Under the pieces are notes generated by a model. It had not been told where the DNA came from and did not search any database. It saw nothing but the letters and a program-made list of their open reading frames with translations. This document shows, one piece after another, positions 5,350 through 8,355 of a stretch of DNA of 64,000 nucleotides. Source of the DNA: Escherichia coli (GTDB lineage: Bacteria; Pseudomonadota; Gammaproteobacteria; Enterobacterales; Enterobacteriaceae). The stretch's first letter is position 1; each line of letters begins with the position of its first letter. The DNA lies in NCBI RefSeq assembly GCF_003334385.1, contig NZ_QOWN01000023.1; one strand, written 5' to 3'. A program made the position numbers and the translations under genes.

Positions 5350-6162
5350 TTAAAGATCCAGCCCAGCCGCTACGTGGCGAATGCCGCGAATCGCTAAACC
5401 CGCATCAGCGTTGATCATCACACCGCTTAATGCGCGATTATTGCGCCGCGATGTCAACATCACATACGGCCCCGTAAAATCCGCCGGTTGCGGGAAAAAT
5501 TGCAGCGGTAAAATGGCGGCAATTTTCTCCGGCGTCAGAGACTGCATTATCGAGGTTTCACTTTGCCCGAGCGCCTGTGGGCCGCGCAGGTCGCTGGCCA
5601 TACCACACGGGCCGACGCCATTCACCCGCACTTTCGGTGCCAGTTCATAAGCCAGTTGGCGAATAAGTCCGGTTGCGGCATGTTTACTGGCGGTGTACAG
5701 CGGGCCACCGCCGCCAGGATACCAGGCGGCATTTGACAGTGTGAAAATCATGCTGCCTTCACTGGCGATTAACGCCGGAGCGCAGGCTTTTGCGCCCAGC
5801 AGGTAACCGAGAACATTGACGTTAAACAGCTCGTGGAAGCCGGTTTCGAGCGTCTCTGCGGGAGTATTAACCAGTGAGGCATTGTGATCCCAGATGCCTG
5901 CATTGCCGATAAAACAATCCAGCTTGCCGGAACGAGTCAGGATCTGATCGACCGCGCGTTGATAATCGGCATAACAGGTCACGTTACCTTCCACCGCCAG
6001 AATATGTTCGCCAAATCGCTGACGCAGACTGGCGACTTTTGCCGCCGACAGTTCCAGCGTGGCAACCTGCGCGCCTTCTTCGATAAATCGCTCGACCAGC
6101 GCCAGCCCTAATCCCGATCCGCCGCCGGTAATAAAAATGGACTCGTTATGCAGATCGCTCAT
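5350..6162 (-). CDS. hcaB: 2,3-dihydroxy-2,3-dihydrophenylpropionate dehydrogenase (short-chain dehydrogenase)
   Basis: SDR N-terminal motif ITGGGSGLG; 4-nt overlap with upstream hcaC. Confidence 0.92.
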
Positions 6163-6479
6163 GGCTGCGCCTCCGGTAAGTCGATGAAAATGTCACCACC
6201 TTCAACGTGTACTGGATAAGTGGTGAGCGGATCGGTGGCGGGCAGGCATAACGCTTTCCCCGTTTTCAGGCAAAAACTGGCGGCGTGTAGCGGGCACTCC
6301 ACCGTGGCGTCATCTTCCAGATACCCTTCTGACATTGACGCATTACCATGGCTGCAACGATCGTTAATGGCATAAAACTCGCCGCCAACGTTGAACAGGG
6401 CGATGACGGGCGAGGTATCGATCCGGAGAGCCTCACCCTCCGGCACATCCGCAACGGGACACGCATAAATTCGATTCAT
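6159..6479 (-). CDS. hcaC: Rieske-type ferredoxin of the dioxygenase system
   Basis: Rieske CxH...CxxH pattern (CSHGNAS ... CPLHAA); 106 aa. Confidence 0.92.
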
Positions 6480-6997
6480 CAGAACAGTACACTCAGGTTA
6501 TGGGAAGTGATTACCGCTTGATCCAGGACGATATCCCGTTCCAGCAAGCGCCAGTTGTCATCTTCCAGACGGCGAACTTTGTCGAAACGCGTTCCAACAT
6601 AGAATGTTTCATCGCGCTCTTTTTGTGCCCGATAAAGCAGATAATTTACCCGCACAGCAAATACGTTTGGGATGTCGGTTTCGCTTATCTGGCAGTTGCT
6701 GATTAAGTGACGGGTGCGTGACGGCGGCTCTTCTGCCCAGGCCATGCCCGTTTCCAGACGGGCGATTCGCCGCTCCAGCTGGTCTTTGGTGTCATTAAAA
6801 ATCCAGGTTGTCGGTGGCTGGACGCCTTTGCGGCGGTCGCGTGTTTGCGCGTTAACTGTGGTGCGCATGGTGTAACGAATCTCTTCGTCGAGCTGCGCCA
6901 GCCAGTCACGAAATTTCCAGTCGTCCAGTAAGCTGGCTTCGTGAAAGAGAAACTGGCTAATGCGGTGATGTAACTCTAGTGAAACTTGCGCACTCAT
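6479..6997 (-). CDS. hcaF: Aromatic ring-hydroxylating dioxygenase beta subunit
   Basis: 172 aa, 4-nt overlap with hcaE stop, 1-nt overlap with hcaC start. Confidence 0.92.
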
Positions 6998-8355
6998 TTC
7001 ATCACCTCCTGCTGGTAAGCGGCGGTTTTATCGAGCACTTCCTGCCAGCTTTCGCTACTCAGAAGATCGGCCCAGCGTTGGTACATTCCACGAGCGGCAG
7101 TTTCTGAAAAGATATAGTTAGTAATGCCAGGAATGCCGTCGTCGCGGCGCTTTTCCTGACCAAGCCCCATTTCCAGACACAGTTTGCTGTTGCGGGCGCG
7201 GTGGCCTTTAAGCAATTTCTGGATTTCACACCAGTTCTCCGAGTCATCCTGCTCGAGAAAACCAGCAGGACCAAAAGCACGAGTGGCGCTGTTTTCAAAA
7301 GCGGCTTTAACTTCATCGGAGGCGGCTTTGTCAGTAATACAGAACGCCCACACTTCAACTTGATCAGGGCCGCGCGGATGCCAGACGCGGAGTGTGGCAG
7401 TGCCGTTTAGCCATGAAAGCGTGGGGAAAATATTGTTATGACCCGCCAGGCGCAGGGCGCGAACTTCACCTAAACGTTGTTCTGCTTCGGCATAGGTTTC
7501 GCGGTAATAGCTTGAAACTGCGCCATCGACCCAGACATTAGCATCCGGTTTTTCAGTAAAGAAGAAACCGCTACCGTGACCGTCCTGACCAAATTGCAGC
7601 GCATCTTTGGCGGTTTCCCACACCGGGCGGGCGGTTTGTCCATCACCGAGGCGCTTATCGCTGCCATCATCTTTCGCCCCTAATACCTGAACGGCAGAAG
7701 CATGGCTGAACAGAGCATGATACTGGTCACTGGCGAACTGCTCTGCCGGGAATTTCCAGTTACAGTTGATCACCCACTTTTGTACGCCGCCGACAATTTC
7801 GGTGCCGCCTTCGCGACGATCCAGCATGCCATCCAGATACCAGGCAATGTCACCCAGGTAATCACGCAGGCCCGGTGCGCTGGTATCCCAGTTGCCAAAA
7901 ATTAGCCCTTTATAACTCTCCACACAAGGAACTTCGTTTAGTCCCCAGTGGGATTTACACAACCCTTGTGGGTAGGCGCGAGGTTCCAGCGGTACATCGA
8001 TCAACTCGCCGTTAATGCCATAAGACCAGCCGTGATACGGGCAGGTAAAGGCGCGAGTGTTGCCGCAATCTGCATAACTCACACGCATGGCCCGGTGGCG
8101 GCATTGGTTGAGAAACGCCTTGATGCTGCCGTCTTTCTGACGCACTACGACAACCGCATCTTCTCCCATGTAGGTGTTAAAGAAATCACCGGGTTTTGGG
8201 ATCTGGCTTTCGTGGGCGAGAAATAGCCAGCAACGACCGAAAATACGCTCAAGCTCCAGTTGGTAAATATCCGGGTCGGTATAAATACGCGGAGTGACCC
8301 GACCATTTTGGGGGTCAATCAGTTGGTAAATGTTCAAATCTGAGGGTGTGGTCAT
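6994..8355 (-). CDS. hcaE: Aromatic ring-hydroxylating dioxygenase alpha subunit (Rieske + mononuclear iron)
   Basis: Rieske motif CRHRAMRVS...CPYHGW; 453 aa; first gene of hca operon. Confidence 0.93.

What the first reader, a model, noticed from the sequence alone, without database searches (positions are those of the whole stretch)
6159..8355. hca dioxygenase genes linked by overlapping stop/start codons
hcaE/hcaF overlap by 4 nt (6994-6997), hcaF/hcaC by 1 nt (6479) and hcaC/hcaB by 4 nt (6159-6162). This indicates tight translational coupling of the dioxygenase alpha, beta, ferredoxin and dehydrogenase components; the LysR regulator hcaR is divergent with a 135 bp control region (8356-8490).
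Basis: seen in the sequence. Interest (0 to 1): 0.2.

Follow-up and report, generated by a model that had tools for sequence, protein, structure and literature searches.

The report
E. coli hca operon overlapping genes
This is the well-known E. coli operon for breaking down 3-phenylpropionate, and its genes are joined by ordinary, evolutionarily conserved stop/start overlaps (ATGA, TGATG) of the kind that link translation of neighbouring genes, so it is real but not new.

Summary
Window 4138-9381 is the E. coli hcaR / hcaEFCBD locus. The junctions are hcaE/hcaF ATGA (6994-6997), hcaF/hcaC TGATG (1 nt shared, 6479), hcaC/hcaB ATGA (6159-6162) and hcaB/hcaD a 9-nt gap. hcaR is divergent across a 135-bp spacer.

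No in-frame start upstream removes an overlap, and downstream starts would delete conserved N-termini.

In 77 species-representative loci from Gamma- and Betaproteobacteria:
- E/F overlaps in 77/77, with a strong Shine-Dalgarno (SD) sequence inside hcaE.
- F/C is -1 in 38/39 Gammaproteobacteria and mostly +2 in Betaproteobacteria; hcaC lacks a usable SD almost everywhere.
- C/B slides among -4, -1 and +2.
- B/D almost never overlaps.

This fits translational coupling by termination-reinitiation, most convincingly at hcaF to hcaC. That is inferred, not shown.

Such overlaps are common: 24% of E. coli co-directional pairs lie at -8 to +6 nt and are enriched for complex subunits.

T-N11-A alone is uninformative here (20 sites against about 13 by chance). 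One partly conserved dyad, TAG-N7-CTA (8441-8453), lies between two deeply conserved blocks.

Verdict: already known, low interest.

The parts
8491..9381 (+). hcaR, LysR-type activator of the hca operon (296 aa), divergent from hcaE
   Evidence: NCBIfam NF007385 HcaR equivalog, 568.8 bits against cutoff 356; PGAP annotation
8356..8490 (.). 135-bp hcaR-hcaE divergent control region
   Evidence: Spacer length is 133-137 bp across most Enterobacterales, Photorhabdus and Vibrio
8461..8477 (-). Conserved block TTATCGAAAAAACGTCT (spacer positions 14-30), candidate regulator or promoter element
   Evidence: Ungapped conservation from E. coli to Betaproteobacteria in alignment A2, with A16, T17 and T30 invariant. 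Function not tested
8441..8453 (.). Best T-N11-A dyad, TAGaaattaaCTA (TAG-N7-CTA); candidate HcaR recognition site
   Evidence: A39-T49 complementary in 58/60 distinct spacers; T38 present in 26/60; position 40-48 is G-C in 18, C-G in 12 and not complementary in the rest. A dyad this good is expected by chance in 58% of shuffles, so the result is inconclusive
8434..8442 (-). Invariant block TATTTCACA (spacer positions 49-57)
   Evidence: T49, A50, T51, T52, A55 and C56 are invariant in 21 aligned spacers. It served as a unique anchor in 60 distinct spacers
8411..8417 (-). Conserved GCAACAT (spacer positions 74-80), possibly at the -35 / activation-site region of the hcaE promoter
   Evidence: A76, A79 and T80 invariant. 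The promoter assignment is inference only; the consensus scan found no sigma-70 match in the spacer
6994..8355 (-). hcaE, dioxygenase alpha (Rieske oxygenase large) subunit, 453 aa
   Evidence: NF042946 HcaE equivalog, 946.9 bits against cutoff 830; PGAP
7002..7010 (-). SD sequence AGGAGGTGA for hcaF, inside the last codons of hcaE (QEV)
   Evidence: Anti-SD duplex -11.6 kcal/mol. Median -11.6 in Enterobacteriaceae and kin and -10.8 in Betaproteobacteria
6994..6997 (-). hcaE/hcaF junction ATGA (4-nt overlap)
   Evidence: Overlapping in 77/77 orthologous loci (-4 in 67, -8 in 7, -1 in 2, -13 in 1)
6479..6997 (-). hcaF, dioxygenase beta (small) subunit, 172 aa
   Evidence: NF042947 HcaF equivalog, 309.2 bits against cutoff 230
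6477..6481 (-). hcaF/hcaC junction TGATG (1-nt overlap at 6479); no usable SD upstream
   Evidence: SD duplex only -3.1 kcal/mol. Distance is -1 in 38/39 Gammaproteobacteria and +2 in 25/37 Betaproteobacteria. hcaC SD medians are -1.9 to -3.1 in every clade
6159..6479 (-). hcaC, Rieske-type ferredoxin component, 106 aa
   Evidence: NF007422 (188.2 bits, cutoff 113) and NF042948 (187.1 bits, cutoff 150)
6170..6174 (-). SD sequence GGAGG for hcaB, inside the 3' end of hcaC
   Evidence: Anti-SD duplex -9.5 kcal/mol; clade medians -7.8 to -9.8
6159..6162 (-). hcaC/hcaB junction ATGA (4-nt overlap)
   Evidence: In orthologues the distance is -4 (36), -1 (25), +2/+3 (13) or other (3), so 62/77 overlap
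5350..6162 (-). hcaB, cis-dihydrodiol dehydrogenase (SDR), 270 aa
   Evidence: NF042950 HcaB equivalog, 498.5 bits against cutoff 450
5341..5349 (-). 9-nt hcaB-hcaD spacer holding the SD (AAGGAA) for hcaD; not an overlap
   Evidence: The gap is 8-13 nt in Enterobacteriaceae and kin, and only 3/74 loci overlap at this junction
4138..5340 (-). hcaD, ferredoxin-NAD+ reductase component, 400 aa
   Evidence: NF007286, 861.2 bits against cutoff 447

Best explanation
This is the E. coli hcaEFCBD operon with its divergent LysR-type activator hcaR. It encodes 3-phenylpropionate/cinnamate dioxygenase alpha and beta subunits, ferredoxin, dihydrodiol dehydrogenase and ferredoxin reductase. The first four cistrons are joined by the two commonest prokaryotic stop/start overlaps, ATGA and TGATG. 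The most likely consequence is translational coupling by termination-reinitiation: a ribosome terminating at the upstream stop restarts at the start codon that shares bases with it. At hcaE to hcaF and hcaC to hcaB, a strong SD embedded in the upstream coding sequence holds or recruits the ribosome, so both reinitiation and some independent initiation are possible. At hcaF to hcaC there is no usable SD, so ferredoxin synthesis probably depends almost wholly on ribosomes finishing hcaF. hcaD starts independently, or is only weakly coupled, from its own SD in a 9-nt spacer. What is shown here: gene identity, the junctions, their conservation, and the SD pattern. What is inferred: the coupling itself, its strength, and any role in fixing alpha:beta stoichiometry.
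For: Identity: 100% DNA identity to annotated E. coli hca loci, and a match in 5,425 of 5,426 genomes, covering at least 80% of the query in 4,346. All six proteins exceed the curated NCBIfam cutoffs. PGAP boundaries are identical. Starts: no upstream in-frame start exists, and profiles align from residue 1-3. Conservation over 77 species-representative loci with 64-99% HcaF identity: E/F overlaps in 77/77; F/C is -1 in 38/39 Gammaproteobacteria; C/B overlaps in 62/77; the B/D junction in the same operon overlaps in only 3/74 and serves as an internal control. The observed distances -4, -1, +2 and +5 all keep the same frame relation, so the boundaries slide by whole codons and stay tight. SD pattern: strong for hcaF and hcaB, absent for hcaC in every clade even though my start rule favoured SD-backed starts. 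In Shimwellia the F/C overlap is lost (+9) and a GGAG SD (-8.4 kcal/mol) appears instead. Literature: four of five native overlapping E. coli pairs tested were coupled (PMC6728339). Coupling collapses by about 20 nt of spacing, and short distances are 4.5-fold enriched for heteromeric-complex subunits (PMC10666635).
Against: No expression data for hca were examined or found. The strong SDs before hcaF and hcaB could drive independent initiation, and bioBF in Huber et al. 2019 was an overlapping pair that was not coupled. Local RNA folds around the junctions are no more stable than shuffles (z from -1.3 to +0.4), so there is no evidence of a structure that would block independent initiation at the internal SDs. 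HcaC and HcaB are not, to my knowledge, stable subunits of the alpha3beta3 oxygenase, so the stoichiometry argument applies cleanly only to E/F. A few Betaproteobacteria have F/C gaps of 28-115 nt without an obvious SD; either coupling is dispensable there or those starts are mis-modelled. In Betaproteobacteria the E/F starts were chosen partly by SD strength, which makes the SD statistic circular for hcaF and hcaB, although database HcaF lengths of 177-184 aa support those starts.
Confidence: 0.7

Rival explanations
1. The overlaps are a neutral by-product of operon compaction and of stop/start codon turnover. Each cistron is initiated independently from its own SD, and the overlaps have no regulatory role.
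For: hcaF and hcaB have strong SDs (-11.6 and -9.5 kcal/mol). The C/B junction drifts among -4, -1, +2 and +3 between close relatives. bioBF shows that an overlap does not guarantee coupling. About a quarter of E. coli co-directional pairs are this tight.
Against: E/F overlaps in 77/77 loci across two proteobacterial classes, while B/D in the same operon overlaps in 3/74. hcaC has no usable SD in any clade, yet its protein is required for dioxygenase activity. The one gammaproteobacterial locus that lost the F/C overlap gained an SD.
Confidence: 0.25
2. The overlaps are annotation artefacts: the true starts lie elsewhere and the genes do not overlap.
For: In-frame downstream start codons do exist: hcaF ATG at +129 nt, hcaC GTG at +33, hcaB GTG at +168.
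Against: No upstream in-frame start exists for any of the three. The downstream candidates have weak SDs (-1.9 to -3.3). They would remove residues matched by the family profiles from position 1-3, including invariant HcaF residues H11-Y42 and the N-terminal GGGSGLG nucleotide-binding motif of HcaB. The same starts are conserved in 77 loci.
Confidence: 0.03
3. The 1-nt TGATG junction serves programmed frameshifting or read-through to produce an HcaF-HcaC fusion protein.
For: Rare database proteins of 279 aa join HcaF to HcaC through ...SVLF-L-MNRIY... or through a frameshifted linker.
Against: Each fusion is a single-member cluster, seen on 1-3 contigs, and is explained by a 1-nt insertion or, for the shorter ones, an internal deletion. 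No slippery sequence or stimulatory structure is evident. Most Betaproteobacteria separate the genes by +2 nt.
Confidence: 0.01

Closest known systems
E. coli K-12 hca cluster (hcaR, hcaE/A1, hcaF/A2, hcaC, hcaB, hcaD; described by Diaz, Ferrandez and Garcia 1998, cited from my own knowledge because the paper was not held)
   Same: The same genes in the same order with the same boundaries; 100% identical to RefSeq-annotated E. coli loci.
   Different: Nothing of substance. The window's strain differs from ER1709 only outside the cluster, by an IS end at window 1-72 and one extra REP/BIME repeat copy.
Overlapping co-directional gene pairs coupled by termination-reinitiation (Huber et al. 2019, PMC6728339; 2023, PMC10666635)
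   Same: The same -4 (ATGA) and -1 (TGATG) geometry, an SD inside the upstream gene at two of the three junctions, and an alpha/beta pair that encodes a heteromeric enzyme.
   Different: hca pairs were not among the pairs tested. The hcaF/hcaC junction lacks an SD, and the ferredoxin and dehydrogenase are not stable complex subunits.
Other class IIB aromatic ring-hydroxylating dioxygenase operons (bph, tod, cum), cited from my own knowledge and not examined here
   Same: The same component set: alpha, beta, Rieske ferredoxin, reductase and cis-dihydrodiol dehydrogenase. HcaB scores 302.8 bits on the BphB/TodD model, below that model's cutoff.
   Different: Gene order and spacing in those operons were not analysed here, so no claim is made about their junctions.
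LysR-type regulators with divergent target promoters and T-N11-A boxes (for example BenM/CatM with ATAC-N7-GTAT, cited from my own knowledge)
   Same: A divergent arrangement, a short fixed-length spacer, and a candidate TAG-N7-CTA (TAC-N7-GTA in some relatives) T-N11-A dyad.
   Different: The dyad is weak, only partly conserved, and no better than chance within a single sequence. The most conserved blocks are not obviously palindromic.

Membership tests
E. coli hcaR-hcaEFCBD 3-phenylpropionate dioxygenase locus | All five structural proteins and the regulator match their specific equivalog models above the curated cutoffs | tested here: met
   HcaE 946.9/830, HcaF 309.2/230, HcaC 187.1/150, HcaB 498.5/450, HcaD 615.7/450 and 861.2/447, HcaR 568.8/356 (bits/cutoff)
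E. coli hcaR-hcaEFCBD 3-phenylpropionate dioxygenase locus | Gene order E-F-C-B-D, a divergent hcaR, and hcaT beyond hcaR | tested here: met
   The E-F-C-B-D order holds in all orthologous loci complete enough to score, except the apparently disrupted Kluyvera L010. A divergent hcaR is present in 77 loci
E. coli hcaR-hcaEFCBD 3-phenylpropionate dioxygenase locus | Nucleotide identity to annotated E. coli loci | tested here: met
   100% over 5,501 nt to ER1709; 4,346 genomes carry at least 80% of the query
E. coli hcaR-hcaEFCBD 3-phenylpropionate dioxygenase locus | Enzymatic conversion of 3-phenylpropionate or cinnamate to the dihydrodiol and then the catechol | not testable with these tools
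   Taken from the literature and from family annotation only
Translationally coupled overlapping gene pairs (termination-reinitiation) | Co-directional genes with a -4 or -1 nt stop/start overlap | tested here: met
   ATGA at 6994-6997 and 6159-6162; TGATG at 6477-6481
Translationally coupled overlapping gene pairs (termination-reinitiation) | Both genes on one transcript, with no internal promoter or terminator | tested here: inconclusive
   The consensus scan found one promoter-like and one terminator-like site on the coding strand inside hcaB, but totals do not exceed shuffles (3 against 5.0; 7 against 7.2). No transcript data were examined
Translationally coupled overlapping gene pairs (termination-reinitiation) | An SD motif within the 3' end of the upstream gene (typical but not obligatory) | tested here: met
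   Met for hcaF (-11.6) and hcaB (-9.5). Not met for hcaC (-3.1), a pattern that is conserved
Translationally coupled overlapping gene pairs (termination-reinitiation) | Downstream translation depends on ribosomes reaching the upstream stop codon | not testable with these tools
   Needs reporter or ribosome-profiling experiments. By analogy only: four of five tested E. coli pairs were coupled
LysR-type regulated divergent promoter with a T-N11-A recognition site | An LTTR gene transcribed divergently from its target operon | tested here: met
   hcaR 8491-9381 (+) against hcaE 8355-6994 (-), with a 135-bp spacer
LysR-type regulated divergent promoter with a T-N11-A recognition site | An interrupted dyad containing T-N11-A upstream of the regulated promoter | tested here: inconclusive
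   20 T-N11-A sites against 12.8 +/- 2.5 in shuffles. The best dyad is TAG-N7-CTA at 8441-8453. At least one dyad this good arises in 58% of shuffles. Cross-species support is partial (A39-T49 in 58/60, T38 in 26/60, some G-C/C-G exchange at 40-48)
LysR-type regulated divergent promoter with a T-N11-A recognition site | Demonstrated binding of the regulator to the site | not testable with these tools
   No footprint or ChIP data were found in the searchable library

The most novel reading that the evidence does not exclude
The ferredoxin gene hcaC has been kept without an SD, at -1 or +2 nt from the hcaF stop, across Gamma- and Betaproteobacteria. Its translation would then be obligatorily slaved to hcaF by termination-reinitiation. 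The invariant HcaF C-terminus (SHNLSVLF) cannot encode an SD, which would force this solution. That would make hcaF-hcaC a natural, conserved example of SD-independent reinitiation that sets the ferredoxin:oxygenase ratio.
Probability: 0.4. Interest if true: 0.25.

Novelty: already known. Interest (0 to 1): 0.08.

Why it matters
It matters little for discovery. The locus, its gene boundaries and the general link between ATGA/TGATG overlaps and translational coupling are all established.

There are two modest practical points:
- People who re-engineer the hca operon or the HcaR/PhcaE biosensor (for example bioRxiv 10.1101/2021.10.08.463720) should expect that separating or re-ordering hcaE, hcaF, hcaC and hcaB changes their relative translation. 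hcaC is most at risk because it has no ribosome-binding site of its own.
- The cross-species table gives a clean in-operon contrast. E/F is always overlapped and B/D almost never is, which could serve as a test case for coupling studies.

Tried and rejected
1. Alternative start codons that would remove the overlaps. None exists upstream in frame. The downstream ones have weak SDs and cut into conserved N-termini. Rejected.

2. My first start-assignment rule, nearest to the E. coli N-terminus, gave apparent E/F gaps of +14 to +44 nt in many Betaproteobacteria. These loci have an ATG (GTG in two) at -4 or -8 with a far stronger SD (about -6.6 to -13 kcal/mol) than the start first chosen, and database HcaF proteins there are 177-184 aa. 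I replaced the rule.

3. RNA secondary structure occluding the internal SDs or starts. Folds of 90-nt windows around the four junctions are not more stable than shuffles. No support.

4. Sigma-70 promoter and intrinsic-terminator scans. Nothing was found in the 135-bp spacer and nothing above the shuffle expectation in the operon. This is uninformative, as expected for an activator-dependent promoter.

5. T-N11-A counting as a test for a LysR site. The motif is too degenerate in this A+T-rich spacer. Only cross-species conservation adds information, and that is partial.

6. Reading TATTTCACA as a CRP half-site (TCACA). The upstream half, AATTA against TGTGA, does not match, and the block is also invariant in Betaproteobacteria, which in my understanding lack cAMP-CRP catabolite control. 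I dropped it as unsupported; it was hand inspection only.

7. Literature on a mapped hcaE transcription start or HcaR operator. The Diaz 1998 paper is not held. Searches returned nothing usable and were swamped by human HCAR genes.

8. HcaF-HcaC fusion proteins as evidence of programmed frameshifting. They are single-member database clusters explained by 1-nt insertions or deletions. Rejected.
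Full report
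**1. What is there**

The ORF table and the minus-strand sequence show five consecutive minus-strand genes at 8355-4138 and a divergent plus-strand gene at 8491-9381. A megablast of window 4100-9600 against 5,426 complete E. coli genomes matched 5,425 of them. The best match is 100% identical (strain ER1709), and the hits are annotated hcaR, hcaE, hcaF, hcaC, hcaB, hcaD and hcaT.

Every protein exceeds the curated cutoff of its own NCBIfam equivalog model:

| Protein | Bits | Cutoff |
|---|---|---|
| HcaE | 946.9 | 830 |
| HcaF | 309.2 | 230 |
| HcaC | 187.1 | 150 |
| HcaB | 498.5 | 450 |
| HcaD | 861.2 | 447 |
| HcaR | 568.8 | 356 |

The same boundaries are annotated in two E. coli strains only 97.6% and 98.1% identical.

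**2. The junctions**

Read on the coding strand, they are:
- hcaE/hcaF: ...GTG ATG AAA TGA with the hcaF ATG inside AAATGA, 4 nt shared (6994-6997).
- hcaF/hcaC: ...TTC TGA TG, 1 nt shared (6479).
- hcaC/hcaB: ...CCA TGA with the ATG inside CCATGA, 4 nt shared (6159-6162).
- hcaB/hcaD: TAA-ggaagcacg-ATG, a 9-nt gap.

The hcaR-hcaE spacer is 8356-8490, 135 bp. The true hcaR start is the ATG of MELRHLRYF, not the upstream TTG that the mechanical ORF listing reports.

**3. Could other start codons remove the overlaps?**

No. For hcaF, hcaC and hcaB an in-frame stop lies 21-33 nt upstream with no start codon in between. The nearest downstream in-frame starts are at +129, +33 and +168 nt, with weak Shine-Dalgarno (SD) complementarity of -1.9 to -3.3 kcal/mol.

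Those downstream starts would also remove conserved protein. The family profiles align from residue 1-3 of each protein. HcaF has invariant residues from H11 onward. HcaB carries its GGGSGLG nucleotide-binding motif at residues 12-18.

**4. Is it more than chance?**

The pattern is real but common.
- Huber et al. 2019 report that about 15% of co-directional pairs overlap in most prokaryotic groups (PMC6728339).
- Huber et al. 2023 count 707 of 2,987 E. coli unidirectional pairs (24%) at -8 to +6 nt, with -4 the commonest single distance followed by -1 and -8. A further 203 pairs (7%) lie at +9 to +12, which is where hcaB/hcaD falls. Short distances are 4.5-fold enriched for subunits of heteromeric complexes (PMC10666635).
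- In this 64-kb window, 4 of 43 co-directional adjacent pairs overlap. Three are hca and one is purM/purN.

**5. Conservation**

I aligned 16 HcaF orthologues and used the alignment to fetch 80 loci from one-genome-per-species collections. These cover Escherichia, Citrobacter, Kluyvera, Pseudocitrobacter, Serratia, Photorhabdus, Vibrio, Acinetobacter, Paraburkholderia, Burkholderia, Cupriavidus, Massilia, Alcaligenes and others.

A script located the five genes by tblastn, extended each to its stop, and chose starts. The first rule, the start closest to the E. coli N-terminus, produced spurious E/F gaps in Betaproteobacteria. Those loci have an ATG (GTG in two) at -4 or -8 with a far stronger SD, and the database proteins there are 177-184 aa. 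I therefore used an SD-informed rule.

Results over 77 loci:

| Junction | Result |
|---|---|
| Gene order | E-F-C-B-D in all loci complete enough to score, except the apparently disrupted Kluyvera L010 |
| E/F | Overlaps in 77/77 (-4 in 67, -8 in 7, -1 in 2, -13 in 1) |
| F/C | -1 in 38/39 Gammaproteobacteria; +2 in 25/37 Betaproteobacteria; 70/76 within +5 nt |
| C/B | -4 (36), -1 (25), +2/+3 (13), other (3) |
| B/D | Overlaps in 3/74; 8-13 nt in Enterobacteriaceae and kin |

In Photorhabdus, Acinetobacter, Advenella and one Paraburkholderia, B/D is about 1 kb because an mhpB-type extradiol dioxygenase gene sits there.

The distances -4, -1, +2 and +5 share one frame relation. The boundaries therefore move by whole codons while staying tight.

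**6. SD pattern**

| Gene | E. coli duplex energy (kcal/mol) | Note |
|---|---|---|
| hcaE | -4.1 | |
| hcaF | -11.6 | AGGAGGTGA, encoded by the Q-E-V codons of hcaE |
| hcaC | -3.1 | |
| hcaB | -9.5 | GGAGG inside hcaC |
| hcaD | -6.1 | |

Across clades, hcaF and hcaB keep strong SDs. hcaC has none, with medians of -1.9 to -3.1, even though the start rule favoured SD-backed starts.

The last residues of HcaF (S165, H166, N167, L168, S169, L171, F172) are invariant. This plausibly prevents an SD from being encoded there; that is my inference.

The one gammaproteobacterial exception is Shimwellia. It has lost the F/C overlap (+9 nt) and has a GGAG SD (-8.4 kcal/mol) in the new spacer.

**7. Mechanism**

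The best reading is translational coupling by termination-reinitiation. It would be SD-assisted at E/F and C/B and essentially SD-independent at F/C, with hcaD initiated from its own SD.

This is inferred from geometry, from conservation, and from published tests on other E. coli pairs, where four of five were coupled and coupling was lost by about 20 nt of spacing. It has not been measured for hca.

Folding of 90-nt windows around the junctions gave no structure beyond shuffles (z = -0.28, -1.30, +0.05, +0.38). There is thus no evidence for the structural occlusion of internal SDs that Huber et al. hypothesised. The main rival, at about 0.25, is independent initiation with overlaps as neutral compaction.

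**8. Control region**

hcaR is divergent in 77 related loci. The spacer is 133-137 bp in most Enterobacterales, Photorhabdus and Vibrio.

Alignment of 21 spacers shows ungapped conserved blocks from E. coli to Betaproteobacteria:
- TTATCGAAAAAACGTCT (window 8461-8477)
- TATTTCACA (8434-8442)
- GCAACAT (8411-8417)

The T-N11-A motif itself is nearly uninformative. There are 20 occurrences in the spacer against 12.8 +/- 2.5 in shuffles, and at least one dyad with three contiguous complementary outer pairs appears in 58% of shuffles.

The best candidate is TAGaaattaaCTA (8441-8453). Over 60 distinct spacers, A39-T49 is complementary in 58, T38 is present in 26, and position 40-48 is G-C in 18, C-G in 12 and not complementary in the rest. 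This is suggestive but inconclusive.

No sigma-70 consensus match was found in the spacer, as expected for an activator-dependent promoter. I found no accessible paper mapping the operator or the transcription start. Published biosensor work does confirm that HcaR activates PhcaE in response to cinnamate and that the system is subject to glucose repression (bioRxiv 10.1101/2021.10.08.463720).

**9. Comparison with what is known, and verdict**

The locus is the E. coli hca cluster itself. The overlaps are already implicit in every RefSeq annotation, and the coupling interpretation is textbook. Nothing here departs from known systems.

The only mildly interesting by-product is the deeply conserved SD-less hcaF-hcaC junction. 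Novelty: already known. Interest: low.

Noticed in passing
window 1-72: The first 72 nt do not match the yphE sequence found at this position in ER1709. They are 100% identical to the end of an IS4-family IS421/IS186-type element, which has multiple copies in 2,188 of 5,426 E. coli genomes. The window's strain therefore appears to carry an IS insertion in yphE, with the junction at 72/73.
   Followed up: partly
window 14804-15170: A tandem array of four copies of a 91-nt unit made of REP/BIME-like palindromic sequences (GCCTGATGCGACGC...), lying in the iscR-trmJ intergenic region. ER1709 has one copy fewer, so copy number varies between otherwise near-identical strains.
   Followed up: partly
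window ~4114-9452 (hcaD to hcaR); locus L086: About 1,079 of 5,425 E. coli genomes match only from query base ~5354 (about window 9453) onward. They lack hcaR-hcaEFCBD but keep hcaT, and in strain DP033 yphA lies directly next to hcaT. This fits the published absence of the hca operon from phylogroup B2 (Touchon et al. 2009, PMC2617782).
   Followed up: partly
proteins P0002, P0003 (279 aa), P0004 (236 aa), P0049 (196 aa); junction at window 6477-6481: Rare database proteins fuse HcaF to HcaC. Two arise from a 1-nt insertion at or just before the TGATG junction (linker ...SVLF-L-MNRIY... or ...[14 protein letters not shown]...), and two from internal deletions. Each is a single-member cluster, so they may be sequencing errors or sporadic mutants.
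   Followed up: partly
L049:6662-7615, L080:6729-7691, L043:6716-7654, L040:4977-5981: In Photorhabdus, Acinetobacter, Advenella and one Paraburkholderia locus, an mhpB-type 3-carboxyethylcatechol 2,3-dioxygenase gene sits between hcaB and hcaD. This joins the next pathway step to the hca operon; in E. coli that gene is in the separate mhp cluster.
   Followed up: partly
L023 (Shimwellia pseudoproteus), hcaF/hcaC junction: This is the only gammaproteobacterial locus without the TGATG overlap. It has a 9-nt spacer, TGAGGAGCCACAATG, that contains a GGAG SD sequence (-8.4 kcal/mol). It looks like a swap of coupling for an independent ribosome-binding site.
   Followed up: partly
L010 (Kluyvera genomosp. 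3 YDC799): The script could not build normal hcaE and hcaC gene models here and returned odd junctions (E/F +61, C/B -20, B/D +338). This suggests frameshifts or pseudogenisation of the cluster, or assembly errors.
   Followed up: no
window 10672-10680: hcaT (plus strand, ends 10680) and csiE (minus strand, ends 10672) overlap convergently by 9 nt at their 3' ends.
   Followed up: no
window ~30150-32460 (pbpC): pbpC is annotated as a frameshifted pseudogene in ER1709, which is 99.97% identical to the window over this stretch. I did not check whether the window carries the same frameshift.
   Followed up: no
window ~55243 (purM/purN): purM and purN share a 1-nt stop/start overlap. This is the only other co-directional overlap among the 43 co-directional gene pairs in the window.
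   Followed up: no
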